A stretch of DNA of 64,000 nucleotides from Patescibacteria group bacterium (GTDB lineage Bacteria > Patescibacteriota > Patescibacteriia > 2-12-FULL-60-25), in NCBI GenBank assembly GCA_052033585.1, contig JBPOJM010000007.1:9187-73186 (forward strand). The letters run 5' to 3'. Shown piece by piece: positions 1 to 40,112 of this stretch. Made by a program: the position numbers and the translations under genes. Numbering within the stretch: position 1 is the stretch's first letter; every line of letters starts with the position of its first letter. Under the pieces are notes generated by a model that worked only from the letters and a program-made list of their open reading frames with translations, had not been told where the DNA came from and did not search any database.

Positions 1-3000
1 TGTGAACGACGCATGCGATACGGCTCTGACCCACATTCCTCTGGCACAATCCCGACATCCCACAAAAACTTGTGCCAAAAACGCGAATACAATAAGTGAA
101 GGGTCGTATGCTCCATCCCCCCGTTATACAAATCCACGGGCATCCAATATTTCAATGCCTCCGATGAAGCCAACTCTTTGTCATTATGTGGATCACAGTA
201 TCGCAAGAAATACCAACTCGACCCGGCCCAATTCGGCATGGTATCCGTTTCACGCATCGCGGGGCCTCCGCACTCCGGACACGTTGTCTCAACCCAGTCG
301 CGAATCTTCGCAAGTGGTGACTCCCCCGTATCGGTCGGCTCATACGCCTCAACCTCCGGCAACTTCAAAGGAAGCTGATTCTCTGGTACAGGAATCCAGC
401 CCGTGTTTTTACTCGTAAGGACTTCACGAATAATCTCAGGATGATCACTCAAAAGAAAATGCCCCTTCGCTCCAAGAGATTTTATGTACCAACCATTCGG
501 AATAAAGGCGTGCGATTGTTTTGGAATACGTGAATCATCGTCAGAAACCAAAACCACTCCACTACCAACGAGCGAATCAATTCGTTTCCAATCAATCGGT
601 CGATCCCAGATTTCACGGAGACATCTATAATCACGATCCGGACGAACCGCCTGCTTCTCTGCCCAGTCTTCATCAGAAATAGGTCCAATCAAAGGGGCGA
701 CCAAATACACATGTCCAATCTTACGACCAAGGTCTTGCACCAGATTAACAGCCACTAGTCCGCCAAGACTATGCCCAACAATCACATCGTCTTCGCCAAA
801 TCCCTCGGCCAATGGTCGCAAAACACTCATCCACTCGTCATACTTTGGAGCTTTCGGATTCGGCAAGCTTGGAACAAACACCTCAAACCCTTGTTTTTCC
901 AAGGCGCACTTTAAAGCAGGAAGCCAATTCTTATTAGCATTCGCGCCTGTTCCATGAATAAGCAAAGCCTTCTGCTTTTTCTTGGCACACGCCCCGCAAT
1001 GCACCAGCGGAATCGGTTCTCCCCAATAGCGTTGACGAGAAAACACCCAATCACGCAAACGATACGTCGACATACCTTTCCCGCTCCCACGCTCTTCCAA
1101 CCAAGACACGACTTCCTCTTTCGCTTTCCAGGTCGGCGCTCCATCCAAAAATCCAGAGTTCATGGCATGCCCCTCTCCTGTCCAGCACGCATGCACAACA
1201 TCAACGCCAAGATGGCCATAGGCTCCCGCACTCGCACCGGCTGCTTCCATCGGACTCCGTTCGACAACAGGGGGACCCTGCACAACAGGTCGAATCGGTA
1301 ACCCAAACGTCTTCGCAAACGCATAATCACGTTCATCATGAGCGGGCACCGCCATCACTGCCCCCGTTCCATACCCCGCCAACACATAATCCGAAATCCA
1401 AACTGGCACGCGCTCCCCATTCACGGGATTCACTGCAAACACCCCCGGCAAGCGCACCCCCGTCTTCTCCCCTTCCCCCGTCCGTTCCTCCTCAGATTTC
1501 TTACTTACTTTTTCAATATACCCTTGTACATTTTCCCACCCCTCTTGAACTTTAAGCTTTTGTACAAGCTCATGTTCCGGCGCGAGTGTCACATACGTCA
1601 CCCCAAAAATCGTATCAGGACGCGTCGTAAACACCTTCAGCTCATAGGAACACAACTCGGTCAGAGTACGCGTAAGCGGTCCCAATTCAACATGAACGGA
1701 TTCTTCCTCCGTCTGATCAACAACGTATTTATTATTGGCCGCGACTCGATACAATCCACGTACCGGAAAATAGATATCCATCTCCCCCTTGCGCTCAGTC
1801 GTCAAAACGATCTGGCGTTTATTCTCTGCCATCTCTTCGGTTCCATCTGGCAAGCGCAACGCCGTCACATCCAACCAATGGCCTGTAACCTCCCCACCAT
1901 GCTTTTCAGCAATCCCACGATAAAACGCATCCATCGCTTTTGCCTTCTCTTCCTGCGTCATCGACGCCTCATCACGTCCCCCCAGAGCATTACGTTTTGG
2001 CGTCGCAACATTCAACTTCTCTCCTGCGATAAACAACCCCGTATCCATACCCAAAATGGGCAGATCTACCATCTGGGCATAGGCAGCCGCTTTAGCACGC
2101 GCATTTTCACGCATGTCATCTCCTTCTTTCACGTCTTGCTCCTCTAAACCAAGATCCGCAGGAGACAACACCTCAAGTCCAGGCAACGTTGCTCCCAGCA
2201 GCTTCTTCACACGTGCAAGTTTGCTTTTATTATTGGTCGCGACCAACACCCGCTCAAACTTTGGAATCCGAAACACAATCTCCGCGCCTTCACTTTTCCC
2301 AATCCAATTCACCTGCTGCGACTTAATCTTGTCGAGATAATCAACCTTATCTAAATCCGTTAACAACCGTTGCGCATAATCCGTGATCCGAATCATCCAT
2401 TGCTCTTTCTCACGCTTCTCAACCTCCGTTCCACAGCGTTCACATACACCTCCCTGTGCCTCTTCATTTGCAAGTCCAATCTTATCTTTCGGACACCAAT
2501 TAATCGTCGATGACGCCTTATACGCCATCCCGTATTTAAAAAATTGCAAGAACTGCCACTGCGTCCATTTAAAATAGGCCGGATCCGTTGTATTAATTTC
2601 CCTCGACCAATCAAACCCGAACCCCAACGATTTTATCTGCCGCGTAAAATTCCCTACATTCTTCGCCGTGGCATCCACCGGCTTCACCTTGTTCTTGATC
2701 GCATAATTCTCCGTTGGCAACCCAAACGCATCCCATCCAATTGGGTAAAGAACATTCTTCCCCTCCATACGCTGCTTGCGCGTCGCAATATCAATGGCCG
2801 TATACGATCGCGGATGCCCCACATGCAACCCATCCCCCGACGGATACGGAAATTCAATAAGTCCGTAAAACTTAGTATCGCGTATCGAGTATCCAGTATC
2901 ACGTATGGAAGCGGCTTCAGCTCCAGCCTCGTTCTGACGCTGGATACTCTCCGTCTCCGGCTGCTTTGCCGAATAGGTTCCTTCTTCTTGCCAAGCTTTC

Positions 3001-3041
3001 TGCCATTTAGCCTCCATGTCATGAATTGGGCGCGGTTGCAT
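1..3041 (-). CDS. leuS: leucyl-tRNA synthetase, 3'-truncated by window edge, with two extra inserted modules
   Basis: Absent from the ORF track because it has no in-window stop. My reverse-strand translation from ATG 3041-3039 gives MQPRPIHDMEAKWQKAWQEEGTY... It contains 'PYPSGDGLHVGHP' (HIGH region), 'VFTTRPDTIFGVTYVTLAPEH' (CP1 editing domain), 'AVPAHDERDYAFA', 'RQRYWGEPIP', 'CPECGG' and 'NGGMEHTTLHLLYSRFWHKF'. The frame stays open to position 1. Confidence 0.9.
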   Translation of the reverse strand, partial: MQPRPIHDMEAKWQKAWQEEGTYSAKQPETESIQRQNEAGAEAASIRDTGYSIRDTKFYGLIEFPYPSGDGLHVGHPRSYTAIDIATRKQRMEGKNVLYPIGWDAFGLPTENYAIKNKVKPVDATAKNVGNFTRQIKSLGFGFDWSREINTTDPAYFKWTQWQFLQFFKYGMAYKASSTINWCPKDKIGLANEEAQGGVCERCGTEVEKREKEQWMIRITDYAQRLLTDLDKVDYLDKIKSQQVNWIGKSEGAEIVFRIPKFERVLVATNNKSKLARVKKLLGATLPGLEVLSPADLGLEEQDVKEGDDMRENARAKAAAYAQMVDLPILGMDTGLFIAGEKLNVATPKRNALGGRDEASMTQEEKAKAMDAFYRGIAEKHGGEVTGHWLDVTALRLPDGTEEMAENKRQIVLTTERKGEMDIYFPVRGLYRVAANNKYVVDQTEEESVHVELGPLTRTLTELCSYELKVFTTRPDTIFGVTYVTLAPEHELVQKLKVQEGWENVQGYIEKVSKKSEEERTGEGEKTGVRLPGVFAVNPVNGERVPVWISDYVLAGYGTGAVMAVPAHDERDYAFAKTFGLPIRPVVQGPPVVERSPMEAAGASAGAYGHLGVDVVHACWTGEGHAMNSGFLDGAPTWKAKEEVVSWLEERGSGKGMSTYRLRDWVFSRQRYWGEPIPLVHCGACAKKKQKALLIHGTGANANKNWLPALKCALEKQGFEVFVPSLPNPKAPKYDEWMSVLRPLAEGFGEDDVIVGHSLGGLVAVNLVQDLGRKIGHVYLVAPLIGPISDEDWAEKQAVRPDRDYRCLREIWDRPIDWKRIDSLVGSGVVLVSDDDSRIPKQSHAFIPNGWYIKSLGAKGHFLLSDHPEIIREVLTSKNTGWIPVPENQLPLKLPEVEAYEPTDTGESPLAKIRDWVETTCPECGGPAMRETDTMPNWAGSSWYFLRYCDPHNDKELASSEALKYWMPVDLYNGGMEHTTLHLLYSRFWHKFLWDVGIVPEECGSEPYRMRRS

Positions 3042-3098: not shown

Positions 3099-3119
3099 CG
3101 CCTGCTTTCGCAAGACGCT
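3099..3119 (-). terminator. intrinsic terminator hairpin (GAAA loop) upstream of leuS
   Basis: The minus strand reads agcgtcttgc-gaaa-gcaggcgct followed by tcttcttttt. Confidence 0.5.
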
Positions 3120-3145
3120 ATAAAAAGAAGGGTGGGGACTAAGCC

Positions 3146-3370
3146 TCACATCATGATGTCAGGGGTGCTGAGGTTGTACCACCTGCTGAGAGTATCCCCC
3201 AACTTCGCGAACGGATCCGAGCCCGCGAACGGGTCAGGACGAGCCGAAGAAACGGCGGGGGAAGTGGGACGCTGATCAGCCGGGGGATCATCCTTGCGCG
3301 TATCCATGACAGATCCTGTCCGTCGTAACCCATGCGGGGTGAAGTCCCCTAGGGCATCGGTCACGACCAC
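3146..3370 (-). CDS. hypothetical small low-complexity protein (doubtful)
   Basis: Track ORF of 74 aa with a GTG start, bracketed by hairpins at 3377-3408 and 3099-3119. The sequence is Pro/Asp-rich and I recognise no homology. Confidence 0.25.
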   Translation of the reverse strand: MVVTDALGDFTPHGLRRTGSVMDTRKDDPPADQRPTSPAVSSARPDPFAGSDPFAKLGDTLSRWYNLSTPDIMM

Positions 3371-3376
3371 AGAACC

Positions 3377-3408
3377 AAAAACCTCCCGGCGTACACCGGA
3401 AGGTTTTT
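3377..3408. terminator. bidirectional terminator-like hairpin
   Basis: aaaaacctcccgg / ccggaaggttttt form a 13-bp stem with one mismatch, and both strands have flanking A/T runs. Confidence 0.45.
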
Positions 3409-3621
3409 GTCAGGAGTCAGGTCAACTCTCAACAAACCACCGGTGAGGGAGGTCTAATAATGAGAGCAATGACGCGCACCTGCTGCATATAAATCGAGAA
3501 TAGAACGTTTTAAATAAGCCGTCAAATCCGAACACACCCATAAATAAAAGAAGCGCCCGTATAAGCACGAAACGCTAAGAAAATAAGAAGTACGGAAGGA
3601 TGAATAAACGTCACTTGGTGA

Positions 3622-4047
3622 TCAGTGAACCGGAGGTGTCGGAGCGGCCGCGAGGTCGTGGCCACCGCCCTGGTTGGAGCGCGGGAAGGTGCGCACCTCG
3701 ACACGTGCGAGTGCCTCGTGCTGAAAGCCCTGCTGCCCAGCCTTGGCCACGAGGCGTGCGTTCAGCTGCGCCCAGACACTGGTGGGAGCAGGCATCTCGC
3801 AGTCCATCGCCTTGACGATACACAGCGCGAGCCCCCACTGCTCGGGAGAACGTCCAGGGTCCTCCAGATCAGAAAACTGGTAGATCCAGCACATGGCGAA
3901 GAGCTGCGCCCCCAGCTCCCCGGGAGCCAGCAGAGCGTCCTCCACGTCTTTCGGAGGCACCTCGAGGAACGAGGCGTACCCCCAATCACGAAGGCCATTG
4001 CTGAAAAAAAGGTCCGCGAGATCAAGCGTCAACGTCAGACGGTACAT
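3622..4047 (-). CDS. hypothetical protein in G+C-rich islet
   Basis: Track ORF of 141 aa with protein-like composition (MYRLTLTLDLADLFFSNGLRDWGY...). The SD-like gagggtgagg lies just upstream of the ATG. Overlapping ORFs in other frames look like shadows. Confidence 0.55.
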   Translation of the reverse strand: MYRLTLTLDLADLFFSNGLRDWGYASFLEVPPKDVEDALLAPGELGAQLFAMCWIYQFSDLEDPGRSPEQWGLALCIVKAMDCEMPAPTSVWAQLNARLVAKAGQQGFQHEALARVEVRTFPRSNQGGGHDLAAAPTPPVH

Positions 4048-4152
4048 GATGCCTCACCCTCAAACCCAGGCCCGATTGCCGCTGGCTGAGGGTAATTCTT
4101 TGTATCAAATCTACAGCCCTCGTCAAGCACAAAGATTCCCTAAACACTTCTC

Positions 4153-4181
4153 TTGACGCCCGTCTCTACCAAGCTTATTCT
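4153..4181 (+). promoter_or_regulatory. sigma70-like promoter (TTGACG-17-TATTCT)
   Basis: TTGACG at 4153-4158, a 17-nt spacer, then TATTCT at 4176-4181. Confidence 0.35.
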
Positions 4182-4187
4182 TTATAT

Positions 4188-4292
4188 ATGAGATCAAATG
4201 TTTTTATGTTTAGCTTCTTTCCGTCACCCTAGGTGGACGAAGATGAGCGTACATACGTTTGATCTCAAGGCCACCTCCCGGGTGGCCTTTCG
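4188..4292 (+). ncRNA. candidate small structured RNA / attenuator leader
   Basis: gagatcaaa (4190-4198) pairs with tttgatctc (4258-4266) as a closing stem. It is immediately followed by the hairpin aaggccacc-tcccg-ggtggcctt (4267-4289) and lies downstream of the 4153 promoter. Confidence 0.3.
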
Positions 4293-4380
4293 TATATCCA
4301 ATGGTGTCCTGTCTCGAGGTGAGAGGTCAGCCCCTCTCCTCGTTCAGGACAGCATCCTGGACACAAGCTGAGTAAATACC

Positions 4381-4584
4381 ATGACAGCAGACGCCGTAGA
4401 TCCGTTCGAGCTTCCGGCCCTCCCTCCTGATGCAGCACCCTCTCCTCCTGACGAACCCGCAGCAAAGAAGGATGATGGGACGCTGACCTCTCTCGCCGAA
4501 CTTCCTCCCCCGGATCCGAACTCACCGCCTCGCGCACGCGGAAGCTGGTTGAACGGATCCACAAACGGAGGCTTCGGCTTCTAA
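4381..4584 (+). CDS. hypothetical Pro-rich small protein (doubtful)
   Basis: Track ORF of 67 aa, followed by the hairpin ccgcga-ttcc-tcgcgg and a T-rich tract at 4613-4640. An antisense 138-aa ORF overlaps it, so the strand choice is uncertain. Confidence 0.3.
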   Translation: MTADAVDPFELPALPPDAAPSPPDEPAAKKDDGTLTSLAELPPPDPNSPPRARGSWLNGSTNGGFGF

Positions 4585-4612
4585 CACGACCCGCCCATTT
4601 CGTCCTCTCTTT

Positions 4613-4640
4613 CCGCGATTCCTCGCGGCTCTCCTTTTCT
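4613..4640 (+). terminator. intrinsic terminator
   Basis: The stem ccgcga/tcgcgg is followed by ctctccttttcttc. Confidence 0.4.
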
Positions 4641-4687
4641 TCAGAACCCCGTTCCGAGAAAAAGCAGGGACTTTTCCACAATCACAT

Positions 4688-4718
4688 TTGACACCTTTTT
4701 TTACCTCATGCACATTAA
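4688..4718 (+). promoter_or_regulatory. sigma70-like promoter (TTGACA, weak -10 CATTAA)
   Basis: TTGACA at 4688-4693 with an A/T-rich -10 candidate 17-19 nt downstream. Confidence 0.3.
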
Positions 4719-4721
4719 AGC

Positions 4722-4921
4722 TAGGTATGAGTCACCGCGCGTATCGTAACCTCAATGCCATCCGCTTTATCAACAAGTGGATGGATCTTTGTGTTACGAC
4801 ACTTCTCGTCATTAAGACGACCTCCTCACGCGGTGGATTTTCCATGGCTACCTAGATACCTACACATCTACGTAACCTATCTAAGAAAACTCCTCCCGCA
4901 CCCCGGGAGGAGTTTTCTTAG
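4722..4921 (+). ncRNA. candidate ~200-nt structured leader ending in a long terminator hairpin
   Basis: Long-range pairs are aggtat...atacct and caccgcgcg...cgcggtgg. A perfect 18-bp hairpin, ctaagaaaactcctcccg / cgggaggagttttcttag, lies at 4881-4921, just upstream of the SD and ATG of the 5001 ORF. Confidence 0.35.
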
Positions 4922-5000
4922 ATCCAACACAACAATCTCATGACCTCGATCGACTCGCGGAGACTTCCCTCCAAGAGTCAGAGAGGTCAGGAGAAGGGTG

Positions 5001-5420
5001 ATGAACGAGAGGAACAATGTAGAAGTGCTCATTCTCGATCCGACCACAAGAGAAAAGGAGCGCAGAGCCGAGATCGGCAGAGGCTTCATCCCACTGAGCT
5101 GCATTACAGGTGCCCTTACCTCTCGCGAAAAGGTAGAGGTACTCAGGGCGCTAAAAAGAAATGGGGCAAATCAAAGCGTCATGGTTCACCCAAGACGTCG
5201 AGGAGCTTCGCCCCACCAGGTAAAGCTGGCAGACCTCGTCATCGACCCAGACGATGAGTTTACCTCCACCCCCTGCCCGATTCCCTACGAAGTCGTGGTA
5301 ACAGGATGCCAAGACATGAGAAAAAATGAATTTCGGGACAGCTATCCCGAACTCGATACCTGTCTTGTTGTTCTCACAGTTCCTGAACCGCCCGTAAGAA
5401 TCCGCTCACACAACTTCTAG
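5001..5420 (+). CDS. hypothetical protein in G+C-rich islet
   Basis: Track ORF 4998..5420. The ATG at 5001 is preceded by aggagaagggtg, and a terminator lies directly downstream. Confidence 0.55.
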   Translation: MNERNNVEVLILDPTTREKERRAEIGRGFIPLSCITGALTSREKVEVLRALKRNGANQSVMVHPRRRGASPHQVKLADLVIDPDDEFTSTPCPIPYEVVVTGCQDMRKNEFRDSYPELDTCLVVLTVPEPPVRIRSHNF

Positions 5421-5432
5421 CACTCCCTGCTT

Positions 5433-5461
5433 CAGAACCCACCCGGGTTCTGCTTCTTTTA
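5433..5461 (+). terminator. intrinsic terminator
   Basis: cagaaccc-accc-gggttctg followed by cttctttta. Confidence 0.55.
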
Positions 5462-5507
5462 TTGACGTTCACTCTCGCAGCGCGCACGATAGAAAAAGGA
5501 AGGAGGA

Positions 5508-5797
5508 ATATGAGCGTTCGACTCGCAAGAGACCCAGGCCGCAGACGTCGACCTCTCACCGCTCGACGCATCGGAAAGGAGAAAGCCCTCCAACTCCTCG
5601 AGGAGGGATTCGAAGTACACATTCAAGATGGAAGACTGGTAGGAGATAGCGGAGGGAAGGAAGACACCCACCCCACCGCCTACCCTCTGCGTGGAGCCAT
5701 TCTCCGCTGGAGAACCGTCACGGACCTTCCCAGAAGCGATGCCACGATCGTCCTCCTCAACGAGCGATCACACCGTTTCTACCTGATGGCCGCCTGA
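5508..5797 (+). CDS. hypothetical basic small protein in G+C-rich islet
   Basis: Inside track ORF 5462..5797. The internal ATG at 5508 has the strong SD aaggaaggagga, and TTGACG lies at about 5463 upstream. Confidence 0.5.
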
Positions 5798-5837
5798 ACG
5801 ATTTCACTCTTTTTCTTCCAACTGAACCCACCCTCCC

Positions 5838-5867
5838 GCGTCCGCCCTCCGGACGCTTGCTTTTTTC
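5838..5867 (+). terminator. intrinsic terminator
   Basis: The stem gcgtccg/cggacgc is followed by ttgctttttt. Confidence 0.6.
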
Positions 5868-6021
5868 TTAAGAATTTGCTAGGGTTATCCACGAAAACTT
5901 CGTGTTTTCCCTTATTCTTACGCCTCGTCGGACATCCTGACGAACGCGCTTACCCGACGATGCCGTCCTGACCAGGATTCCCAAGGATCCGATCCGCACG
6001 CTAACGTCGTTGAACGCTTCT

Positions 6022-6282
6022 ATGTTAGACCCACAAAAGAAGAAGAAAATCATCGAGAAATTCAAGACCCATGCCACCGATACCGGTTCCCCTCAAGTCC
6101 AAATCGCCATCTTGAGCGAAGAGGTCAAAGAGTTGACCGACCACTTGAAGACCCACAAGAAGGACTTCTCTTCCCGCCGTGGTCTCATCAAAAAGGTTGG
6201 CGAACGCCGCCGCTTGATGCGCTACTTGAAACGCACCGACAACAAGGCCTACGACGAATTGATGGCCAAGCTCAAGATCTAA
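6022..6282 (+). CDS. rpsO: 30S ribosomal protein S15
   Basis: Track ORF 6010..6282. 'DTGSPQVQIAILSEEVKELTDHLKTHKKDFSSRRGLIKKVGERRRLMRYLKR' is a classic S15 sequence. The ATG at 6022 gives the usual length. Confidence 0.95.
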   Translation: MLDPQKKKKIIEKFKTHATDTGSPQVQIAILSEEVKELTDHLKTHKKDFSSRRGLIKKVGERRRLMRYLKRTDNKAYDELMAKLKI

Positions 6283-6284
6283 AC

Positions 6285-6316
6285 AAAAAGACTCCTCGTA
6301 TGGAGTCTTTTTGTTT
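6285..6316 (+). terminator. rpsO intrinsic terminator
   Basis: aaaaagactcc-tcgtat-ggagtcttttt. Confidence 0.75.
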
Positions 6317-6511
6317 CCCACTCTCCCCATAAAGAGAAAACTGGACAAAAGTGAAAAAATCTAGTATTATTTTATTGATCTTGAGTCTTTTTGATAAAAC
6401 TCCTTATCTTTGCGAGAGGCTATCTTTTACCCTCTCCTTAATTTAACTCTTTCAGACATTTTTACAGAGCCCTTTCTCGCCTCTCAAGCCAAGAAGACCC
6501 TCTTGCGCTCG

Positions 6512-13201: not shown

Positions 13202-13567
13202 ATGACCCTCCCCGAACCTACCCTCCGCGATATCATGAACGCAATTAACGCTCATGACCAAAGATTTGAAAAGATGGATAAACGCTTCGACGATATTATT
13301 GAAGTCATGCAAGAATCCTTTGCTCATGTAGACGCAGATTTTAGAGACATTCGTTCTAAAATGGTAACAAAAGAAGATTTAGAGCAAAGCAAGCAAGAAT
13401 TACGTCAGGAAATACAAGAAACAAAAAAGGAATTGCACCAAGAACTCCAAGACGTAAAACTAGAGTTGAAAACCGACATCAAACAACTCGGTCACCGACA
13501 GAAAATGGCAGACCGAGACCTTGAAACCATCCGTCTCCGCCTCAAACATCTCCAAACCAACCCTTAA
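13202..13567 (+). CDS. hypothetical coiled-coil protein
   Basis: Inside track ORF 13121..13567. From the ATG at 13202 the sequence has a heptad-like, charged E/K/Q-rich pattern. Confidence 0.55.
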   Translation: MTLPEPTLRDIMNAINAHDQRFEKMDKRFDDIIEVMQESFAHVDADFRDIRSKMVTKEDLEQSKQELRQEIQETKKELHQELQDVKLELKTDIKQLGHRQKMADRDLETIRLRLKHLQTNP

Positions 13568-14226
13568 CCCATCCCTTCCTGCATTTTCTTCCATATTTTG
13601 GCATGCCCATGCGCCTCGCGCATGCGTTTCACCGCCCGCTGCATCATCTCATGCGTCTCTCCTCGTTCCCCCAATTCCTCCACACGCTTCTGCCAAAATA
13701 CTGCACTCTGCGGCAATCGTTCTCCTAAATACTGATCCCATTCCCCAAACGCATCCTCCATCTCCTGCTGCTTATTCAGAACATTTGTCTTTGCTTCTGT
13801 CGATCCTGCTCCATTTTCTACTCGCTCATCCATAATCACCCCACGCACCCACAACTCTGAACGCACCAATTCCGCGCGTTCTACATCGGTCACCACTTCC
13901 TGACGCACCGCCCGCAACCAATCCCGCCATTCGCGTAATAATTCCGTTGTCGGTGTTTGTACAATGGTGCACCGTTCCACCAATCGCCCCAAGATCATTT
14001 GCTCCATCTCAAGCTCACGTTCCACAACCGCACTTCCATCAAAACGACGAATCCGATCCACCATCGAAAGCAGTTGTTTCTCCGCCTGTCGCATCACCTC
14101 TTCCATGCGCTGAGCTAATGCACGCTGTGCGCTCGCAAGCGCTGCACGACGCGCTTCCACCTTATACGCTGGCACCCCGACGTTCGTCGAGGATGTTTTG
14201 CCTTTAATCCAAGAAAATAAACGCAT
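13564..14226 (-). CDS. hypothetical helical/coiled-coil protein
   Basis: Track ORF 13564..14400. Its first 58 codons overlap the upstream gene out of frame, so the ATG at 14226 ('MRLFSWIKGK'), 4 nt after the upstream stop, is more likely. Confidence 0.55.
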   Translation of the reverse strand: MRLFSWIKGKTSSTNVGVPAYKVEARRAALASAQRALAQRMEEVMRQAEKQLLSMVDRIRRFDGSAVVERELEMEQMILGRLVERCTIVQTPTTELLREWRDWLRAVRQEVVTDVERAELVRSELWVRGVIMDERVENGAGSTEAKTNVLNKQQEMEDAFGEWDQYLGERLPQSAVFWQKRVEELGERGETHEMMQRAVKRMREAHGHAKIWKKMQEGMG

Positions 14227-14230
14227 AAAA

Positions 14231-16606
14231 TTAGCGGACAGCTCCAATACGCTCTTCCAAAACTTGCAAACGCTTCTGAACCGCCGTATTCGTCGGCACA
14301 CTCGCTGCCACCAGACGTAGTTGCGCCAACGCATCCGATAAACGTCCGGATTCCTCATATAAAGATGCAAGCTGCCAACGTGCACGCACCTGGGTTGCAT
14401 CCAATGCTAACACCTTTTCAAACGCCGCGATCGCCCGCGCTGACTGATTGATCTGCATCGCTAAAATCCCCAGCTCAAAAATCCGGTCAGCCGTAGGCTC
14501 CTGCGCTGCAACAGACTCCAAGGCTCGAAAGGCCTCCTCCCCCTTCCCTTGCCGATGGAAGATGACCGCTTCTTGGTACCGAGCAGGCACATAATCAGGC
14601 TTTAACCTCAAGGATGCCTGTGTCCAACGTGCCGCATCTTCCAATGCTTGACGCTCTTGCTGCATCGCTTGCTCTCGCACGCTCGCTTCTTTTGCCTCAA
14701 ACAACACATGAAGTTGCTGCGCACGCAATAAGAACAGTCCTCCAATTTGATACGGATAATCGGGATGCTGTGGATCACGCTGCATCGCTTCTTGATACTG
14801 CTTGATCGAAAATCCATCTGCCCCCTGAGTAAATGAGGCGATTCCGCCATAAATCATCCCCGCGTTTGCCCAACTATCTGAGTTGGCCGGAGCTAAGCGA
14901 GTCGCCTCTAGAGCTACATCCACCATCGCCGTCACTTGTTCACCCACCATCTGCGACCGTTCACTCGTTGAAGCATCTTTCACGCGCTGTAAAACCTGCA
15001 CTAAGTACGCCTGCGCCAATGCACGAGCAGACATATCATCCCAAGGATGAATGGCTCGCACAGCCCGCAAAGCTTCTACGACCTCCTGGGAAGACATCTC
15101 TCCACGTTGATAGGCAGAGACAATCCGCTCCGTCTTTGCCTGCGCCCACCACGTCTGACCACCCAGTACCAGCACCACTAATACTGCAATTGTTATTCCA
15201 AGCGCCTTCATAGGCAAAAGCCATTTCCAAGGTCGACGCATCCCATCCACCATTAAACGCATCTGCGCGGAGAAGCCCATGAGACACCCCGTCAGCGTCC
15301 AAAATATAATTTGGTGTGATAAGTTCATGTTATAGAAAAACAGCCCGACGCTCATCGCAGTCCAACCGCTAAACACAATGATCTGCAAAGGCAACCCTTC
15401 TTCAAATACATCATGTGTATGATGGCCACGTCGTGCCTTGAGAAACCGATACACACCCACCCCAAACACCGCCGCCAAAAAGAGGATGAATAGTCCGCTC
15501 ACTACCATTCCCGTCGTCGCAAACAACGTGAGAAACTGTGAACTAGCACGGTCAAACCGATTCGCCCAAAAGGCGGTGGAATTAAATTGCGGCGCACGAT
15601 ACAAGGCATAATCATAGGCCCATGTCCCTGGTCCCGTTCCCAACCAAGGGTGTGCTGCCACGGTCTGCTGCGTAATCTGCCATGAAGCAGACGTGGACAA
15701 TCCCACCTCTCCTGCCACCGGCGTTTCCCAAGTCATCGGCTTAATCAAATTCACCATCGCCATGACCATAGTCAAAAGGAACCATATTCCCCGCTTTGTT
15801 TTCTTAAAAAGATCTTGTTTTCCAAGCACCATGAAGACCGTAAGACACACAATACCTACAAGCACCATCATCCAGGCCACCCAAAACTGCACGCGCCATA
15901 AAATAACCAGGGAAGCGAGCCATAGAACCCACGCACTGCCTCGCGCCACCATTCCAGGCCAGGCGGTTAAAGAAAACACGCCTTCAAGGCGACGGCCGAA
16001 CATCATCACTCCCAGCGACACAACACTTGCCACACTCGCACACAACGACAAGGCATAAATACTTCCAGCCACCGTCACCACCTCTCCCGAAAACACCGAC
16101 CACATACCCGCTCCAACCACCCCCAAAGATCCGAGTAACAACAAAAATAATAAGGCCGAATATGAAAGGAGCATTCGGACCCGCTGCGCGACCAACCATG
16201 CAAAAATGAGGAGCGCCGCAATACTCGAAAACGTCCAGGCACGTTGACTAAATTGTCCTACCAACGATAAATACGGGTGAGCAGAAAAGATCGTCGCCAA
16301 AAAAATCCCAATACCAAATAATGCGAGAGGAATACTTGTCCATCCCATGCGAACTTCGGAACGACGCTCAAACGCACTCCGTAGTGTTCTAGCCACAAGC
16401 GCAATCCCAACAAGACCAATCAAAACCCCATGCTTAAACAATTCTGCTCGCTCAAAACTCGTAGCCGCCAACCCAGGCACAATCACAATCAGTAACGCCA
16501 AACAAATATCGGTGATAAACGACATCCATCCTCCAATCCGGGTACGCTGGACATTATCCATAAAGAGCAGAAGACCTAGACATAGATACATGCCAGTATA
16601 ACACAA
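14231..16606 (-). CDS. O-antigen ligase/polymerase-like polytopic membrane protein with C-terminal TPR repeats
   Basis: 791 aa with many TM segments, the motif 'AAHPWLGTGPGTWAY' typical of Wzy_C/O-antigen-ligase family proteins, and a TPR-like C-terminal half. Confidence 0.65.
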   Translation of the reverse strand: MCYTGMYLCLGLLLFMDNVQRTRIGGWMSFITDICLALLIVIVPGLAATSFERAELFKHGVLIGLVGIALVARTLRSAFERRSEVRMGWTSIPLALFGIGIFLATIFSAHPYLSLVGQFSQRAWTFSSIAALLIFAWLVAQRVRMLLSYSALLFLLLLGSLGVVGAGMWSVFSGEVVTVAGSIYALSLCASVASVVSLGVMMFGRRLEGVFSLTAWPGMVARGSAWVLWLASLVILWRVQFWVAWMMVLVGIVCLTVFMVLGKQDLFKKTKRGIWFLLTMVMAMVNLIKPMTWETPVAGEVGLSTSASWQITQQTVAAHPWLGTGPGTWAYDYALYRAPQFNSTAFWANRFDRASSQFLTLFATTGMVVSGLFILFLAAVFGVGVYRFLKARRGHHTHDVFEEGLPLQIIVFSGWTAMSVGLFFYNMNLSHQIIFWTLTGCLMGFSAQMRLMVDGMRRPWKWLLPMKALGITIAVLVVLVLGGQTWWAQAKTERIVSAYQRGEMSSQEVVEALRAVRAIHPWDDMSARALAQAYLVQVLQRVKDASTSERSQMVGEQVTAMVDVALEATRLAPANSDSWANAGMIYGGIASFTQGADGFSIKQYQEAMQRDPQHPDYPYQIGGLFLLRAQQLHVLFEAKEASVREQAMQQERQALEDAARWTQASLRLKPDYVPARYQEAVIFHRQGKGEEAFRALESVAAQEPTADRIFELGILAMQINQSARAIAAFEKVLALDATQVRARWQLASLYEESGRLSDALAQLRLVAASVPTNTAVQKRLQVLEERIGAVR

Positions 16607-16632: not shown

Positions 16633-19600
16633 TTATTCTCCCTCCGTCGCCCTCTGTGCCACCTCCGCATTCTCTATTATTACGTCCTGAGAAAGCTCAC
16701 GCTGCTCGGTAGCCAAAGGCGCGGGCTCCACAACCACAGGCACTGTCTCCTCGGGGGCGGGCGCAACAACCGGCTCCGTGCTCGAAACGACAGACTCAAT
16801 CGGCGCAACAACCGGTTGTGTACTCGTAGAAACCTCTTGCGCCACTGAAGGCGATGTCGGGTGTTGCTCCTCAGGCTCTGGTACCGTCGGCTGTGTACTT
16901 GTCGCCAACGTCTGAATCAAAGCTTCTCCCGTCGTCGTATTTACAAGCGCATAGGTTCCATCTGAACGATACACGCGTGCACCCGTCGGCGTCCCTTGCA
17001 CACTCCACGCGAACGTTACATCACGCATCTGTTTATCATGTAAGAAGATATCAAATCCAGTATCTGTATAGTTATCCGTCCACCAGCCTCCATTTACTTG
17101 TCCACGTGGTGTCACTTGAATATTCGGATAACTCAAGACCGAATCATACGCGACATGCACCCGTTTCGATCCAGCCTCCACATACGCAAACCCACGATAC
17201 GAAACCTCCTTCGCCATATCCTCCGTTTTCACCTCTTCGCTCGATACTCGATTCTCGATACTCGATACTGCTTCCTTGCCTCCCCACCACCCAGGATTCA
17301 CAAACACCTCAATCTTGCCCACACTCGATCCGTCATACGCCTCCAAAGCTAACCCTACAATTGGACCTGCTTTCGTCGCTTTTACAGCCGTTCCAGGAAT
17401 GGTAGAGGGGCCAAGCGGATCACCAATCTTAATCGCTCCATTCATAGCTGAAACTTTCGTAGGCACACGACCAGCCAGCGCAATCGGATAGGTATCCGGG
17501 TCAGGACGCCCCGCGATAAACGCAGGCTTCGTCGACACAATCCCCATAAGCAATCCCGTCTCACTCAAAGAACGTTGTACATGAAATCGTCCACGCTCAC
17601 TCGCCACCACCAAATCTCCATGCTCTAACTTATCGGGCGAATAATAGCGCTCGGCAAAGTCATACGAATCATTTGCCTGCCATCCATCTGCATTCGTCGC
17701 GATATATTGCGTCGAAGTGCTTGTATCATCGAGAAAAATATACTTCTCTTGCTGCACTCCCTGACGACCAGCAGGATACAACCGACCTCCGAGAACCATA
17801 TCCCCCGCGATAGTGGCCTTTCCCAATTGAGTAATCGCAAACACGTTAGAGGATGAGGTGTTGCGGATCACAAAGGAAGATGACGTCGGCGTTGTGACTT
17901 CCGTCAGGAGCCCAAAACTCGTTTTATTGGCCTGCATGCCATCCCAAGCACTGCCACGAAATGTAAGTCCCCAAGAATTCATCGTCGGAACTCCTGGCGT
18001 CGCGTCTGCACGCGCTTCGATAACCAAATCATCCGTTAAACGCGCCACTCGTCCATCCGTATTCAAAATAGCTCCCGCGGAGTACCCCGTCTTCACAAAC
18101 ACCTCGATCGTAGACGTGGTATTCGTTGCCTCCAAGGCATAGCCCAAAATCATCCCTGGCTTCGTTGCCTTCATAGCAACACCAGGATACTCAGATGTTG
18201 TAAGGGCATCACCAATAGCAATGGCTCCGTTCACAGGGGAAACCTTGGTCGGCACACGTCCAGTAAGAGCAACCGGCACCCCATCAGGAAGCATCCCGAG
18301 CAAGAACCCTGGCTTTGTGGAATACACGCCCGCAATCCGCGGGTCATAAGCAACCCCCGAGCTTTGCTGCATGCTCACCGGATCACTTCCAAACACCAAT
18401 ACATCCGTAGTCGTAGCATACCCTTGAAGACGATAGGATTCAGCCAAGTCAAAGGCATCACTAGAAGAAATGGTATCGTCCGCAATCAAACTATAGTGAG
18501 TTCCGGTATACCCGGGACAAGAGTTCCGATAATCCTGAGCCAAACACAATCCACTCAAACCATAGTTGAGCACCATCGAGTAAACTTTTGTCCCCGTCGC
18601 AGCAGCATTGGGACCAACCAACAACCGATCCACATACGCACCCCAAGCAGCATGTTGAACATTATAATCTGCACTGTTGGTAAAGCGCGCAACCGCAGCA
18701 GAACTAGACGTATTCACAAGTAACTGGACGGATGTTCCGGAAATTTTCGTGACACCTAATTGGGTTGTCCCAGACACGTAAAGATTACCCGTAAACGTTG
18801 AGGTCGAATAAGAGGCAACATTCAATATACCGTCCGAGTAAATCCCTCCTTGCCCAACCGTTAACCCCTGATCAACCATCAAACGACTAGAAGATACGTT
18901 CCCAAGAACGCTCAGTGACCCACTCAACGTCGACGTCCCGCTCCCACTAAAATAGAACAGCCCTGAACCCGTCACCGAACCCTGCCTATTTAAAGAAAAA
19001 ACTGTTTCGTCTTGATCGTTCACACCCCGAAGCAAGAAATCATATTGGTTCGACGTGCCACTTGATCGAACCAACAACGCGGTACGTGAACTCGTCGCCG
19101 CATTATTCTCTGTTTGATTAACCGTAAACAAATCCTGTCCTCCGCTTGCGGTGCTCGAAGCATACATCCCCTGGAGTTGTTCCGCATTAAATGCCTGCGG
19201 CACCGCACCCAATCGTTTCCGCGGACTCATTTCACTATCAGACCCAATCGTGACCCCCAAATAAATAGTATCTGTATTCCAATTCACACTATCCAACGTG
19301 TTTTGCCAAAATCCCGCCGCTGATGAGTCACCCAACAACAAACTAAACAATCCATTTTGAACCGCTACCGGTATCGCAGTCGGTAATGCCGTCGTTCCGG
19401 ACGCAGTCCATAAGGTCGTTCCCCCAGAAGCTGCAGAATATAAACTAAATTTCATTTGGTAGGTTCCATCCGTCACCGCCACTCCCGATGCATTCAAAAG
19501 CTTTCCTTGATAGCTAATCTGCCGATTAATTCCAGGTGCGGCCTGAACAAATGAGCCTTCAACAAAAATAAACAGAGCAGCAATAAAACAAAAAACCGCC

Positions 19601-23759: not shown

Positions 23760-23761
23760 AC

Positions 23762-39794: not shown

Positions 39795-40112
39795 TCAATA
39801 AGATAGATTCGTCTTCATCCTGACCTATAGGCAAGATCCCTTCAAGTCCTGGGCTTTCCACAAGAAGAGGGTGGCTTAGAGATAGGTGAGATAGATGTAT
39901 AAAACGGAAGTAGTAATAGTAAGCCCTGTGGAGATGTGGAGAAGCGGCAAAACCCTACTATTTTAGAGAAGAAAATCCCCGCACGCCTCCACAGTCATCT
40001 GTGCGACACAACGGGATAACAGCGGATATCCTGAGGACAAGATGCCCGCTGCCTCACAGGGTGCTTGTCCCCGCACACCTAGTCCCCAGCTTTCCCGACG
40101 GAACCCACAGAC
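39795..40112. promoter_or_regulatory. dnaA-dnaN intergenic region with imperfect DnaA-box-like 9-mers
   Basis: CTTTCCACA (39854-62), TGTGGAGAT (39927-35) and TGTGGAGAA (39935-43), each 1-2 mismatches from TTATCCACA/TGTGGATAA. Confidence 0.4.

What the first reader, a model, noticed from the sequence alone, without database searches (positions are those of the whole stretch)
400..985. Alpha/beta-hydrolase (YdeN/RBBP9-type serine hydrolase-like) module inserted in frame inside LeuRS
In bacterial LeuRS, the first zinc knuckle after 'YWGEPIP..HC..C' is followed within a few residues by '.VPVPE.QLP..LPE'. Here about 190 extra residues lie between 'PLVHCGAC' and 'GWIPVPENQLPLKLPE'. They read 'KALLIHGTGANANKNWLPALKCALEKQGFEVFVPSLPNPKAPKYDEWMSVL...DDVIVGHSLGGLVAVNLV...VVLVSDDDSRIP...GAKGHFLLSDHP'. 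This gives an HG oxyanion motif, a GHSLGG nucleophile elbow and later Asp and His candidates, which together make a complete small esterase fold. I do not know of a synthetase body hosting a separate hydrolase fold. It suggests an additional trans-editing, deacylase or moonlighting activity.
Basis: partly seen in the sequence, partly recalled or inferred. Interest (0 to 1): 0.7.

Follow-up and report, generated by a model that had tools for sequence, protein, structure and literature searches.

The report
Esterase domain nested inside leucyl-tRNA synthetase
The enzyme that loads leucine onto tRNA in this ultra-small (CPR/Patescibacteria) bacterium carries a complete serine esterase, apparently active, spliced in frame into one of its zinc knuckles; hundreds of related genomes have the same thing, no paper I could find describes it, and its job is untested.

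Summary
On the minus strand, window 3041→1 encodes a bacterial-type LeuRS whose C-terminus runs off the window. Window 402-986 (aa 686-880) is a 195-residue in-frame insert between the two Cys pairs of the ZN-2 zinc module.

- **Identity:** the insert is a YdeN/RBBP9-family α/β serine hydrolase. It passes Pfam PF06821, and a profile of it matches PDB 1UXO at E 6.5e-34. The AlphaFold2 model has pLDDT 96.7 and aligns to 1UXO at TM 0.80.
- **Not a chimera:** 96 of the 120 best LeuRS homologues, from independent assemblies, carry the insert at the same site.
- **Catalytic residues:** His696, Ser758 and His861 are invariant (96/96) and Asp836 nearly so (95/96), although the inserts are only 25-66% identical.
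the same protein holds a second nested enzyme, a Ham1/ITPase fold at aa 258-465. This LeuRS clade has at least three insertion hot spots, filled in varying combinations by Ham1, NUDIX, HAD or YdeN-like modules.
- **Host enzyme:** LeuRS keeps its HIGH motif, CP1 editing residues and ZN-2 cysteines.

Function is inferred only. It is probably a soluble-ester hydrolase, most likely an aminoacyl-ester hydrolase coupled to tRNA charging. The main rival is a hitch-hiking house-cleaning enzyme.

The parts
1..3041 (-). leuS, bacterial-type leucyl-tRNA synthetase. The start codon ATG is at 3041. 1013 codons are visible and the C-terminal ~220 aa, including KMSKS, lie beyond the window start.
   Evidence: Continuous frame. 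TIGR00396 leuS_bact scores 697.8 bits against a cut-off of 548.4. The closest homologue, P0004, is 1236 aa with KMSKS at aa 1010, about 12 residues past the window edge.
402..986 (-). Nested YdeN/RBBP9-family α/β serine hydrolase domain (aa 686-880, 195 aa). This is the finding.
   Evidence: Pfam PF06821 33.5 bits. Profile vs 1UXO E 6.5e-34. AF2 pLDDT 96.7, pTM 0.93. Foldseek 1UXO TM 0.80 and RBBP9 TM 0.74. Same site in 96 homologues.
954..956 (-). His696 of the HG oxyanion-hole motif (LLIHGTG)
   Evidence: His in 96/96 homologous inserts.
759..776 (-). Nucleophile elbow GHSLGG (aa 756-761). Ser758, the predicted nucleophile, is codon 768-770.
   Evidence: Ser758 96/96, Gly760 96/96, His757 93/96. 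It aligns with the GHS motif that holds Ser75 of RBBP9, and with the HSLG motif of YdeN.
534..536 (-). Asp836, predicted triad acid (VSDDDSRIP)
   Evidence: Asp in 95/96 inserts. Aligns with the SxDD motif of YdeN and RBBP9.
459..461 (-). His861, predicted triad base (KGHF)
   Evidence: His in 96/96 inserts. Aligns with the GHF motif of YdeN and RBBP9.
987..998 (-). First Cys pair of the ZN-2 zinc module (Cys682, Cys685), immediately N-terminal to the insert
   Evidence: Aligns to T. thermophilus Cys439/Cys442. Conserved 121/121 and 116/121. ZN-2 Cys pairs are essential for aminoacylation in another bacterial-type LeuRS (PMC4005665).
270..281 (-). Second Cys pair of ZN-2 (Cys921, Cys924; TTCPECGG), C-terminal to the insert
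   Evidence: Aligns to T. thermophilus Cys484/Cys487. Conserved 121/121 each.
1647..2270 (-). Second nested enzyme: a Ham1/RdgB (ITPase) fold domain, aa 258-465, inserted just before the TTRPDT motif of the CP1 editing domain
   Evidence: Pfam PF01725 31.9 bits against a cut-off of 22.5. Profile vs PDB 3TQU E 9.8e-12. AF2 pLDDT 95.5. Foldseek to RdgB/Ham1 TM 0.62-0.74.
987..1646 (-). CP1 editing domain and return to the catalytic core (aa 466-685), with intact editing residues TTRPDT (472-477), Asp569 and Asp572
   Evidence: Pfam PF13603 E 1.5e-54. The editing residues are conserved in 117-121 of the 121 homologues aligned.
2814..2825 (-). HIGH signature (HVGH, aa 73-76) of the class I catalytic site
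   Evidence: 121/121 at the three positions counted: His73, Gly75, His76.

Best explanation
SHOWN: this is a functional-looking bacterial-type LeuRS of a Patescibacteria (CPR) bacterium. A complete, lid-less YdeN/RBBP9-family α/β serine hydrolase is nested in frame inside the ZN-2 zinc module, between the Cys682/685 and Cys921/924 pairs. The Ser758-Asp836-His861 triad and the His696-Gly oxyanion motif are under strict purifying selection across the clade, while the rest of the domain evolves much faster than the synthetase. LeuRS keeps its own synthetic, CP1-editing and zinc residues. The module is one of several interchangeable hydrolase cassettes (Ham1/ITPase, NUDIX, HAD, YdeN-like) that occupy at least three insertion hot spots in this LeuRS clade. 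INFERRED: the domain is an active esterase for a small water-soluble acyl ester. The most likely substrate class is α-aminoacyl esters: the 3'-aminoacyl end of a charged or mischarged tRNA, or a related aminoacyl ester produced at the synthetase. The proposed mechanism is that Ser758 attacks the ester carbonyl, the His696-Gly backbone stabilises the oxyanion, His861/Asp836 act as the relay, and water releases the amino acid. This would give LeuRS a second hydrolytic clearing site in cis, in addition to CP1. My confidence in the shown part is about 0.95. My confidence in the aminoacyl-ester/tRNA-linked function is about 0.4-0.45; the confidence score given for this explanation refers to that inferred function.
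For: - **Domain identity and fold:**
- **Triad conservation:** His696, Ser758, Gly760 and His861 are 96/96 and Asp836 is 95/96, although the inserts are only 25-66% identical to this one.
- **Purifying selection:** ω = 0.24 for the insert in the comparison with P0004.
- **Host intact:** the HIGH positions, TTRPDT, Asp569/572 and the ZN-2 cysteines are conserved in 116-121 of 121 homologues.
- **Repeated capture by editing synthetases:** the same hydrolase family sits at site C in 96 proteins, at site B in P0142, P0169, P0137 and P0139, at site A in P0133 (two in tandem) and P0141, and at a fourth site in P0190. It also occurs inside an IleRS-like protein, P0177.
- **Fusion to a tRNA-binding domain:** P0002 is Ser_hydrolase + tRNA_bind (PF01588).
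- **Neighbourhood of free-standing relatives:** P0135 lies 126 bp upstream, on the same strand, of an insert-less LeuRS. P0145 overlaps by 4 bp the end of a genuine D-aminoacyl-tRNA deacylase gene (TIGR00256, 202.7 bits).
- **Chemistry of the family:** human RBBP9 is an aminopeptidase that requires a free α-amine, and it forms aminoacyl-enzyme adducts (PMC8866121). It is also reported to activate valacyclovir (Shenoy 2020, known here only as a title cited in PMC7730578); from my own knowledge valacyclovir is an L-valyl ester of a nucleoside analogue. YdeN lacks a lid and was predicted to act on soluble esters or thioesters (Janda 2004, as cited in PMC6119806).
Against: - No activity has been measured.
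- CP1 editing is fully intact, so a second deacylase for the same errors would be redundant.
- The module sits at different places in different LeuRS, which argues against a precise geometric coupling to the CCA end.
- It co-occurs with Ham1, NUDIX, HAD and His_Phos modules, and exists as free NUDIX-hydrolase and hydrolase-IMPase fusions. These are nucleotide or sugar-phosphate house-cleaning families, not tRNA enzymes.
- In the 12 genomic look-ups, most of the other free-standing relatives sit next to unrelated genes: β-eliminating lyases, a glycine decarboxylase P-protein (GDC-P) gene, a downstream ORF I read as SHMT-like, Mur ligase, DUF1761, and a HIT-family gene.
- RBBP9's α-amine ligands are not clearly conserved. 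Ser76 is Leu here, and the Glu108 equivalent is ambiguous: Asp804 is Asp in 73/96 inserts, and position 806 is acidic in 56/96 but Arg here.
- No coordinates were available, so the distance from Ser758 to the tRNA 3' end is unknown.
Confidence: 0.45

Rival explanations
1. Hitch-hiking house-cleaning enzyme. The hydrolase is active, but its substrate has nothing to do with tRNA charging; it could be a damaged metabolite or a salvage ester. Surface hairpins of LeuRS (the start of CP1, a CP1 loop, and ZN-2) are simply permissive sites. In gene-poor CPR genomes with little regulation, small housekeeping hydrolases (ITPase, NUDIX, HAD, YdeN-like) become fixed there and ride on a constitutively expressed essential gene.
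For: - The co-inserted modules belong to classic house-cleaning families, in every combination including none, and the combinations are patchy on the LeuRS tree.
- The hydrolase is found at several different sites.
- Free-standing NUDIX-hydrolase and hydrolase-inositol-monophosphatase fusions exist.
- P0002 lies next to an inorganic pyrophosphatase gene.
- The insert evolves much faster than the host: aa identity 0.65 against 0.95, and ω 0.24 against 0.007.
- The free-standing subfamily is abundant in reduced-genome CPR bacteria and DPANN archaea.
Against: It does not explain why the same family was captured repeatedly by LeuRS and IleRS in particular, why one relative is fused to a tRNA-binding domain, or why others sit in operon-like arrangements with dtd and leuS. 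I did not survey other essential proteins, so I cannot say whether LeuRS is unusually favoured as a host.
Confidence: 0.35
2. Selfish or neutral domain-level insertion. The cassette spreads among LeuRS genes by recombination through the highly conserved flanks and persists because excising it would damage an essential gene, without benefit to the cell.
For: - The gene is a mosaic when compared with P0004. dS is 0.32 in the N-terminal core, 0.79 in CP1 and 1.49 in the insert, followed at once by 57 codons of 100% nucleotide identity.
- 82 discordant pairs were flagged, and all 60 that were printed combine ≥88% core identity with <70% insert identity.
- GC3 of the insert is lower than that of the host gene: 0.395 against 0.51-0.59.
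- The linkers are conserved (AKKKQK... ...SKNT).
Against: The catalytic triad is invariant and ω is 0.24, so enzymatic function is under selection. There are no Hint/intein or endonuclease families in the protein, and the insert starts with Ala and is followed by Gly, so self-splicing is excluded. 90 of the 96 inserts form one block on a rough neighbour-joining tree, consistent with mostly vertical descent. The lower GC3 is also seen in P0004, so it is not evidence of a recent import.
Confidence: 0.07
3. Non-catalytic module. The fold is kept only as a structural spacer, a tRNA- or protein-binding surface, or an allosteric sensor of LeuRS.
For: α/β-hydrolase folds are sometimes reused as binding modules (my own knowledge). 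No activity data exist for this protein.
Against: Ser, Asp, His and the oxyanion His-Gly are invariant across inserts that are otherwise as little as 25% identical. That pattern is the signature of catalysis, not of a scaffold.
Confidence: 0.04
4. Assembly or gene-calling artefact: a chimeric contig joining a hydrolase gene into leuS.
For: Read mapping across the junctions (~402 and ~986) could not be done here.
Against: The frame is continuous, with no stop or frameshift. The same junctions, to the residue, occur in 96 of 120 homologues from four independent data sources, some on contigs up to 0.9 Mb. The flanking ZN-2 halves are complete.
Confidence: 0.01

Closest known systems
YdeN (B. subtilis, PDB 1UXO) and RBBP9 (human, PDB 2QS9/7OEX): Pfam Ser_hydrolase PF06821
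   Same: Same family by sequence profile (E 6.5e-34 and 1e-21) and by predicted fold (TM 0.80 and 0.74). It has the same ~190-residue lid-less α/β-hydrolase architecture, the same HG, GHSxG, SxDD and GHF motifs, and a Ser-Asp-His triad.
   Different: YdeN and RBBP9 are free-standing proteins. Here the whole domain is nested inside another enzyme. RBBP9's α-amine ligands (Ser76, Tyr99, Glu108) are not clearly conserved. The region after β6 is about 13 residues longer and forms three helices.
CP1 editing domain of LeuRS/IleRS/ValRS, and other aaRS editing modules (ProRS INS/YbaK, AlaX, DTD)
   Same: A hydrolytic domain inserted into, or associated with, a synthetase body. CP1 is itself an insertion-only module (PMC13114784). 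A relative of the present hydrolase is operon-linked to DTD.
   Different: The fold and chemistry are unrelated: this is a covalent Ser-nucleophile α/β hydrolase, whereas (from my own knowledge) CP1 and DTD hydrolyse the ester without a covalent acyl-enzyme intermediate. It is added on top of an intact CP1. No deacylase activity has been shown. The domain table of AARS Online, as described in PMC11580382, lists no hydrolase of this kind.
Synthetases carrying extra enzymatic or accessory domains, e.g. NCBIfam NF040702 'isoleucine--tRNA ligase, N-acetyltransferase domain-containing', and the eukaryotic GST, WHEP and EMAPII appendages
   Same: An aaRS that has acquired an unrelated domain.
   Different: To my knowledge, the eukaryotic GST, WHEP and EMAPII domains are terminal appendages. 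Here up to three or four catalytic domains are nested within the catalytic and editing body at recurrent internal hot spots, and they vary between close relatives.
Inteins in essential proteins
   Same: A large in-frame insertion at a conserved site of an essential housekeeping protein. It is patchily distributed and shows signs of recombinational mosaicism.
   Different: There is no Hint domain, no splice-junction residues and no homing endonuclease. The insert is an ordinary enzyme fold that must remain in the mature protein.

Membership tests
Bacterial-type leucyl-tRNA synthetase (TIGR00396 leuS_bact) | Whole-protein score above the curated equivalog cut-off | tested here: met
   697.8 bits against a cut-off of 548.4, despite two inserts and a missing C-terminus.
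Bacterial-type leucyl-tRNA synthetase (TIGR00396 leuS_bact) | Class I HIGH signature | tested here: met
   HVGH at aa 73-76. His73, Gly75 and His76 are each 121/121 in homologues.
Bacterial-type leucyl-tRNA synthetase (TIGR00396 leuS_bact) | KMSKS loop | not testable with these tools
   It lies about 12 residues beyond the window start. It is present at aa 1010 of the closest homologue, P0004 (85% identical overall).
Bacterial-type leucyl-tRNA synthetase (TIGR00396 leuS_bact) | CP1 editing domain with the T-rich motif and the conserved Asp residues | tested here: met
   PF13603 E 1.5e-54. TTRPDT at 472-477, Asp569 and Asp572 are conserved in 117-121 of 121.
Bacterial-type leucyl-tRNA synthetase (TIGR00396 leuS_bact) | ZN-2 four-Cys module (specific to bacterial and mitochondrial LeuRS) | tested here: met
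   Cys682, 685, 921 and 924 align with T. thermophilus Cys439, 442, 484 and 487. Conserved in 116-121 of 121. The role of ZN-2 is taken from PMC4005665.
YdeN/RBBP9 serine hydrolases (Pfam PF06821) | Profile match above the Pfam gathering score | tested here: met
   33.5 bits against 22, covering 153 of 172 model positions. Profile-to-PDB match to 1UXO at 6.5e-34.
YdeN/RBBP9 serine hydrolases (Pfam PF06821) | Compact lid-less α/β-hydrolase fold | tested here: met
   AF2 pLDDT 96.7. The top Foldseek hits are 1UXO (TM 0.80, rmsd 2.5) and RBBP9 (TM 0.74).
YdeN/RBBP9 serine hydrolases (Pfam PF06821) | GxSxG nucleophile elbow with a Ser-Asp-His triad | tested here: met
   GHS758LGG, Asp836 and His861. 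Conserved 96/96, 95/96 and 96/96 in homologous inserts.
YdeN/RBBP9 serine hydrolases (Pfam PF06821) | Hydrolytic activity dependent on the Ser nucleophile | not testable with these tools
   Requires protein biochemistry.
RBBP9-type α-aminoacyl hydrolase specificity | Residues that anchor a free α-amine (RBBP9 Glu108, Ser76, Tyr99) | tested here: inconclusive
   Ser76 corresponds to Leu759. An acidic residue occurs nearby (Asp804 is Asp in 73/96 inserts; position 806 is Asp or Glu in 56/96 but Arg here). The loop alignment contains a 13-residue gap.
aaRS editing / aminoacyl-tRNA deacylase domains (CP1, YbaK/INS, AlaX, DTD) | Homology to a known editing fold | tested here: not met
   The only Pfam, PDB and Foldseek matches for the insert are α/β hydrolases. 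I therefore do not file it as a member. 'Works like a deacylase' remains a hypothesis.
aaRS editing / aminoacyl-tRNA deacylase domains (CP1, YbaK/INS, AlaX, DTD) | Deacylation of aminoacyl-tRNA | not testable with these tools
   There is only association evidence: the dtd operon, leuS adjacency and the tRNA_bind fusion.
Inteins | Hint domain and splice-junction residues (Cys/Ser/Thr at position 1 and +1, terminal His-Asn) | tested here: not met
   No Hint or intein family in the Pfam scan. The insert starts AKKKQK, ends SKNT, and is followed by Gly.
Ham1/RdgB ITPases (PF01725), for the second insert | Profile match, fold, and the N-terminal catalytic Asn/Lys/Glu/Lys/Asp residues | tested here: met
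   31.9 bits against 22.5. TM 0.62-0.74 to RdgB/Ham1 structures. N14, K17, N56, K60, D76 and R93 are invariant and E49 is ≥90% conserved in 18 homologues. The C-terminal half is divergent in sequence, and I did not check it for the motifs I recall from RdgB.

The most novel reading that the evidence does not exclude
LeuRS, and at least one IleRS-like protein, of CPR bacteria act as a modular multi-enzyme chassis. Recurrent internal hot spots host interchangeable, catalytically intact hydrolase cassettes. The YdeN-like cassette would be a previously unrecognised class of cis-acting aminoacyl-ester hydrolase: a covalent Ser-nucleophile α/β-hydrolase proofreading or deacylation site that works alongside CP1. 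The Ham1, NUDIX and HAD cassettes would sanitise the nucleotide substrates or by-products of the same enzyme. That would add a new fold to the short list of aaRS editing domains and would assign a first physiological role to the bacterial YdeN family.
Probability: 0.3. Interest if true: 0.85.

Novelty: new variant of a known kind. Interest (0 to 1): 0.66.

Why it matters
Aminoacyl-tRNA synthetases are among the most intensively studied enzymes, and the known repertoire of hydrolytic quality-control domains is small and structurally well defined. A covalent-catalysis α/β-hydrolase nested in the body of LeuRS is not in that repertoire. It is conserved across a large radiation of uncultured bacteria, has an invariant triad, and sits beside nested ITPase, NUDIX or HAD domains.

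If it acts on aminoacyl esters, it is a new kind of editing or deacylation site, and it would give the uncharacterised bacterial YdeN family a function. If it does not, it is still a clear natural example of repeated domain-in-domain insertion into an essential enzyme in minimal genomes. That bears on how reduced genomes package housekeeping chemistry, and on engineering permissive insertion sites in synthetases.

Either way it can be tested directly with one recombinant protein and an S758A mutant.

Tried and rejected
- **Word-indexed homology search, insert alone:** only 3 hits, missing even the closest homologue (85% identical overall). This is a limit of the index, not evidence of rarity. 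The full-length query and the exhaustive HMMER search corrected it.
- **The search for related loci:** The single-protein scan of GTDB genomes found only 7 loci, several titled 'uncultured Gammaproteobacteria' (a label I suspect is wrong) and one 'Candidatus Magasanikiibacteriota'. It is too thin for a taxonomic census.
- **Cassette-swap hypothesis:** I first read the drop to ~60% nucleotide identity exactly over the insert as replacement of the cassette. Four-fold-site identity is only modestly lower there (0.54, against 0.57-0.77 elsewhere), the nearest inserts still belong to the nearest LeuRS bodies, and the low GC3 is shared with P0004. I therefore keep only 'mosaic gene with a fast-evolving insert' and do not claim a swap.
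- **Last homology search, profile of free-standing relatives:** meant as a census of fusion partners, it returned only ~190-aa stand-alone proteins. It gave taxonomy (CPR and DPANN names) but no census.
- **Non-hydrolase parts of other fusion proteins (P0199, P0200, P0240, P0151):** as I read them, low-complexity, membrane or coiled-coil sequence, and uninformative.
- **Intein reading:** rejected.
- **Literature:** six full-text searches on LeuRS/aaRS with hydrolase, Nudix, Ham1, YdeN, PF06821 or CPR terms found no description of the architecture.
- **Geometry:** I could not obtain model coordinates, so I did not test how the hydrolase sits relative to the synthetic and editing sites.
Full report
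**1. What is in the sequence**

The minus strand of window 1-3041 is a single open frame of 1013 codons. It starts at the ATG at 3041 and runs off the window start. It is a bacterial-type leucyl-tRNA synthetase:
- It scores 697.8 bits against NCBIfam TIGR00396, above the cut-off of 548.4.
- Pfam finds tRNA-synt_1 and the LeuRS editing domain PF13603 at E 1.5e-54.

Aligned to T. thermophilus LeuRS (PDB 1H3N), the match stops at 'MVHCEACG' (Tt 443) and resumes at 'GVVPVPEEELP' (Tt 443). WIN aa 686-880 (window 402-986, 195 residues) is therefore a clean insertion with nothing deleted. ('WIN' denotes the protein encoded in this window.)

The insertion point lies between the two Cys pairs of the ZN-2 zinc module: Cys682/685 before it and Cys921/924 after it, equivalent to Tt Cys439/442 and Cys484/487. 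ZN-2 is specific to bacterial and mitochondrial LeuRS, and mutating either Cys pair abolished aminoacylation in another bacterial-type LeuRS (PMC4005665).

**2. What the insert is**

- Pfam gives Ser_hydrolase PF06821 (33.5 bits, cut-off 22), plus Abhydrolase_6 and Abhydrolase_1.
- A profile built from 29 such domains (26 LeuRS inserts and three other relatives) matches B. subtilis YdeN (1UXO) at E 6.5e-34 and human RBBP9 at 1e-21.
- AlphaFold2 on that alignment gives pLDDT 96.7 and pTM 0.93.
- Foldseek against the PDB ranks 1UXO first (TM 0.80, rmsd 2.5 Å). RBBP9 entries follow at TM 0.74, including 7OEX, which is RBBP9 bound to phenylalanine.

**3. It is not an artefact and not unique**

A search with the whole protein returned a dense set of LeuRS from Patescibacteria. 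Source names include Patescibacteria group, Uhrbacteria, Falkowbacteria and Magasanikiibacteriota. In a MAFFT alignment of the best 120, 96 carry a ~195-residue insert at exactly this position.

JGI's pipeline already names some of them 'leucyl-tRNA synthetase/predicted alpha/beta hydrolase family esterase'. The closest relative, P0004, is 85% identical overall, is 1236 aa long, and has KMSKS about 12 residues beyond the point where the window ends.

Across the 96 inserts, which are 25-66% identical to this one, the catalytic residues are conserved as follows:

| Residue | Role | Conservation |
|---|---|---|
| His696 | HG oxyanion motif | 96/96 |
| Ser758 | nucleophile | 96/96 |
| Gly760 | nucleophile elbow | 96/96 |
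| Asp836 | triad acid | 95/96 |
| His861 | triad base | 96/96 |

The linkers (AKKKQK... ...SKNT) are also conserved. In the codon comparison with P0004, ω for the insert is 0.24. This pattern indicates a working enzyme rather than a spacer.

**4. The host enzyme is intact**

The conserved HIGH positions (His73, Gly75, His76), the CP1 editing motif TTRPDT, Asp569 and Asp572, and the four ZN-2 cysteines are conserved in 116-121 of the 121 aligned sequences, whether or not they carry inserts. The hydrolase is therefore an addition to CP1, not a replacement for it.

**5.

The same protein has a second nested enzyme. Between 'KSEGAEIVF' and 'YELKVFTTRPDT' (aa 258-465, window 1647-2270) lies a Ham1/RdgB ITPase-fold domain:
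- Pfam PF01725 scores 31.9 bits.
- A profile of it matches PDB 3TQU at E 9.8e-12.
- The AF2 model has pLDDT 95.5.
- Foldseek gives TM 0.62-0.74 to RdgB/Ham1 structures.
- The N-terminal catalytic residues are conserved.

Across the clade there are three main hot spots:
- **Site A**, at the start of CP1: Ham1.
- **Site B**, a CP1 loop: NUDIX (~150 aa) or HAD (~178 aa).
- **Site C**, in ZN-2: the YdeN-like hydrolase.

Every combination occurs, including none (P0122 and P0077, ~796 aa). Close relatives differ in architecture on a rough neighbour-joining tree.

The YdeN-like module itself is not tied to site C:
- It occupies site B in P0142, P0169, P0137 and P0139.
- It occupies site A in P0133 (two in tandem) and P0141.
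- It occupies a fourth site in P0190.
- It also occurs in an IleRS-like protein (P0177) that carries a histidine-phosphatase domain as well.

**6. How it evolves**

Compared with P0004, the LeuRS core is 95% identical, the Ham1 insert 95%, and the hydrolase insert only 65%. Nei-Gojobori estimates are as follows:

| Region | dS | ω |
|---|---|---|
| N-terminal core | 0.32 | 0.007 |
| Ham1 insert | 0.39 | 0.06 |
| CP1 | 0.79 | 0.11 |
| Hydrolase insert | 1.49 | 0.24 |

A tract of 57 codons with 100% nucleotide identity follows directly. The gene is therefore a recombinational mosaic, and the hydrolase is its fastest-evolving part.

The discordance is general. Eighty-two discordant pairs were flagged, and all 60 that were printed combine ≥88% core identity with <70% insert identity. 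On a rough tree, 90 of the 96 inserts form one block next to free-standing relatives, and six fall elsewhere. That is compatible with one main ancient capture plus a few independent ones.

**7. What it probably does**

This section is inference. Three lines of evidence bear on it.

*Family chemistry.*
- RBBP9 is an aminopeptidase that needs a free α-amine and forms aminoacyl-enzyme adducts (PMC8866121).
- RBBP9 is also reported to activate valacyclovir. I know this only from a title, Shenoy 2020, cited in PMC7730578. From my own knowledge, valacyclovir is an L-valyl ester of a nucleoside analogue.
- YdeN has no lid and was predicted to act on soluble esters or thioesters (Janda 2004, via PMC6119806).

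*Associations pointing to aminoacyl-tRNA.*
- The family has been captured repeatedly by LeuRS and IleRS (section 5).
- One relative is fused to a tRNA_bind domain (P0002).
- The best free-standing match, P0135, lies 126 bp upstream, on the same strand, of an insert-less LeuRS.
- Another free-standing relative, P0145, overlaps by 4 bp the end of a genuine D-aminoacyl-tRNA deacylase gene (TIGR00256, 202.7 bits).

*Associations pointing the other way.*
- The companion inserts are nucleotide or sugar-phosphate house-cleaning families.
- Free NUDIX-hydrolase and hydrolase-IMPase fusions exist.
- Most of the other free-standing relatives I looked up have unrelated neighbours.
- The module's position in LeuRS is not fixed.
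- CP1 is intact.
- RBBP9's α-amine ligands are not clearly conserved.

I therefore commit to 'an active soluble-ester hydrolase, most likely acting on α-aminoacyl esters linked to tRNA charging' at about 0.4-0.45. 'An unrelated house-cleaning enzyme riding on LeuRS' is a close rival at about 0.35.

**8. Comparison with what is known**

The insert is a member of PF06821. It is not a member of any known aaRS editing fold. It is not an intein.

The paper describing AARS Online and its domain table does not contain the word 'hydrolase' (PMC11580382). A 2026 survey of domain-insertion architectures mentions LeuRS only for the CP1 module (PMC13114784). Six full-text searches found no paper on this architecture. 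NCBIfam does recognise an IleRS with a GNAT domain, so synthetases with extra enzymes are a known kind.

I rate this a new variant of a known kind. It is visible in databases but apparently undescribed and uncharacterised.

**9. Context**

The window is ordinary chromosomal DNA near the replication origin. It holds dnaA and dnaN at 38.6-41.5 kb, along with polA, a class A PBP, recA, ftsK, trigger factor and PNPase. It has four tRNA genes. Nothing suggests a mobile element around leuS.

**10. Limits**

- No read data were available.
- No model coordinates were available, so there is no geometry of the hydrolase relative to the tRNA path.
- There is no genome-wide census of architecture against free-standing genes.
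- The trees are rough neighbour-joining trees.
- The neighbourhood sample is 12 look-ups.

Noticed in passing
window 1647-2270 (-), LeuRS aa 258-465: A second complete enzyme is nested in the same LeuRS. It is a Ham1/RdgB (ITPase) fold inserted just before the TTRPDT motif of CP1, with conserved N-terminal catalytic residues and a C-terminal half that is divergent in sequence. It is 95% identical to the copy in P0004.
   Followed up: yes
homologues P0005-P0123 (alignment); not in this window: Relatives of this LeuRS carry NUDIX (~150 aa) or HAD (~178 aa) domains at a third hot spot inside CP1, in every combination with the Ham1 and hydrolase inserts. The window's own protein has only a ~48-aa expansion there (aa ~586-630, window ~1150-1285).
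   Followed up: partly
L015 3570-4004 and 4001-4567; L011 5001-5588 and 5714-8212: Free-standing relatives of the insert sit in operon-like arrangements. One overlaps by 4 bp a genuine D-aminoacyl-tRNA deacylase gene. Another lies 126 bp upstream of an insert-less leuS.
   Followed up: partly
P0177 (1394 aa): An IleRS-like class I synthetase (it has the DUF5915 C-terminal domain) carries a YdeN-like hydrolase before the KMSKS loop and a histidine-phosphatase domain after it. Nested hydrolases are therefore not confined to LeuRS.
   Followed up: partly
window 276-446 (-), LeuRS aa 866-922: A tract of 57 codons is 100% identical at the nucleotide level to the homologue in L008. It directly abuts the hydrolase insert, whose dS is ~1.5. 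This looks like a recent recombination or gene-conversion tract in a mosaic gene.
   Followed up: partly
window ~2874-2960 (-), LeuRS aa ~28-56: The LeuRS N-terminus has about 23 extra residues compared with T. thermophilus. The stretch looks low-complexity and is only 17% identical to P0004, although the flanking sequence is nearly identical.
   Followed up: no
window 402-986 vs rest of leuS: GC3 of the hydrolase insert is 0.395, against 0.51-0.59 in the rest of the gene. The same trend appears in P0004 (0.451 against 0.54-0.57). The cause is unresolved; weaker codon selection or a different origin are both possible.
   Followed up: partly
one search hit list (P0273-P0392): The free-standing ~190-aa subfamily closest to the insert carries source names mostly from reduced-genome lineages: CPR bacteria (Levybacteria, Parcubacteria) and DPANN archaea (Woesearchaeota, Nanoarchaeota, Aenigmatarchaeota).
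   Followed up: no
window 3100-6400: About 3.3 kb directly upstream of leuS has no ORF longer than 154 aa, and GC reaches 0.59 at 3501-4000. The homologous locus L008 has several small unannotated genes in the same position. I did not examine this region.
   Followed up: no
window 16633-19653 (-), 22866-24712 (-), 13564-14400 (-): One large ORF (1006 aa) and three medium ORFs (297, 316 and 278 aa) have no Pfam match at E ≤ 1e-5. They lie next to a 1027-aa protein with fn3 and CarboxypepD_reg domains and a TPR protein, so they may be cell-surface proteins.
   Followed up: no
window 38655-41516 (-): dnaN and dnaA are adjacent, so the window lies at or near the chromosomal replication origin.
   Followed up: no
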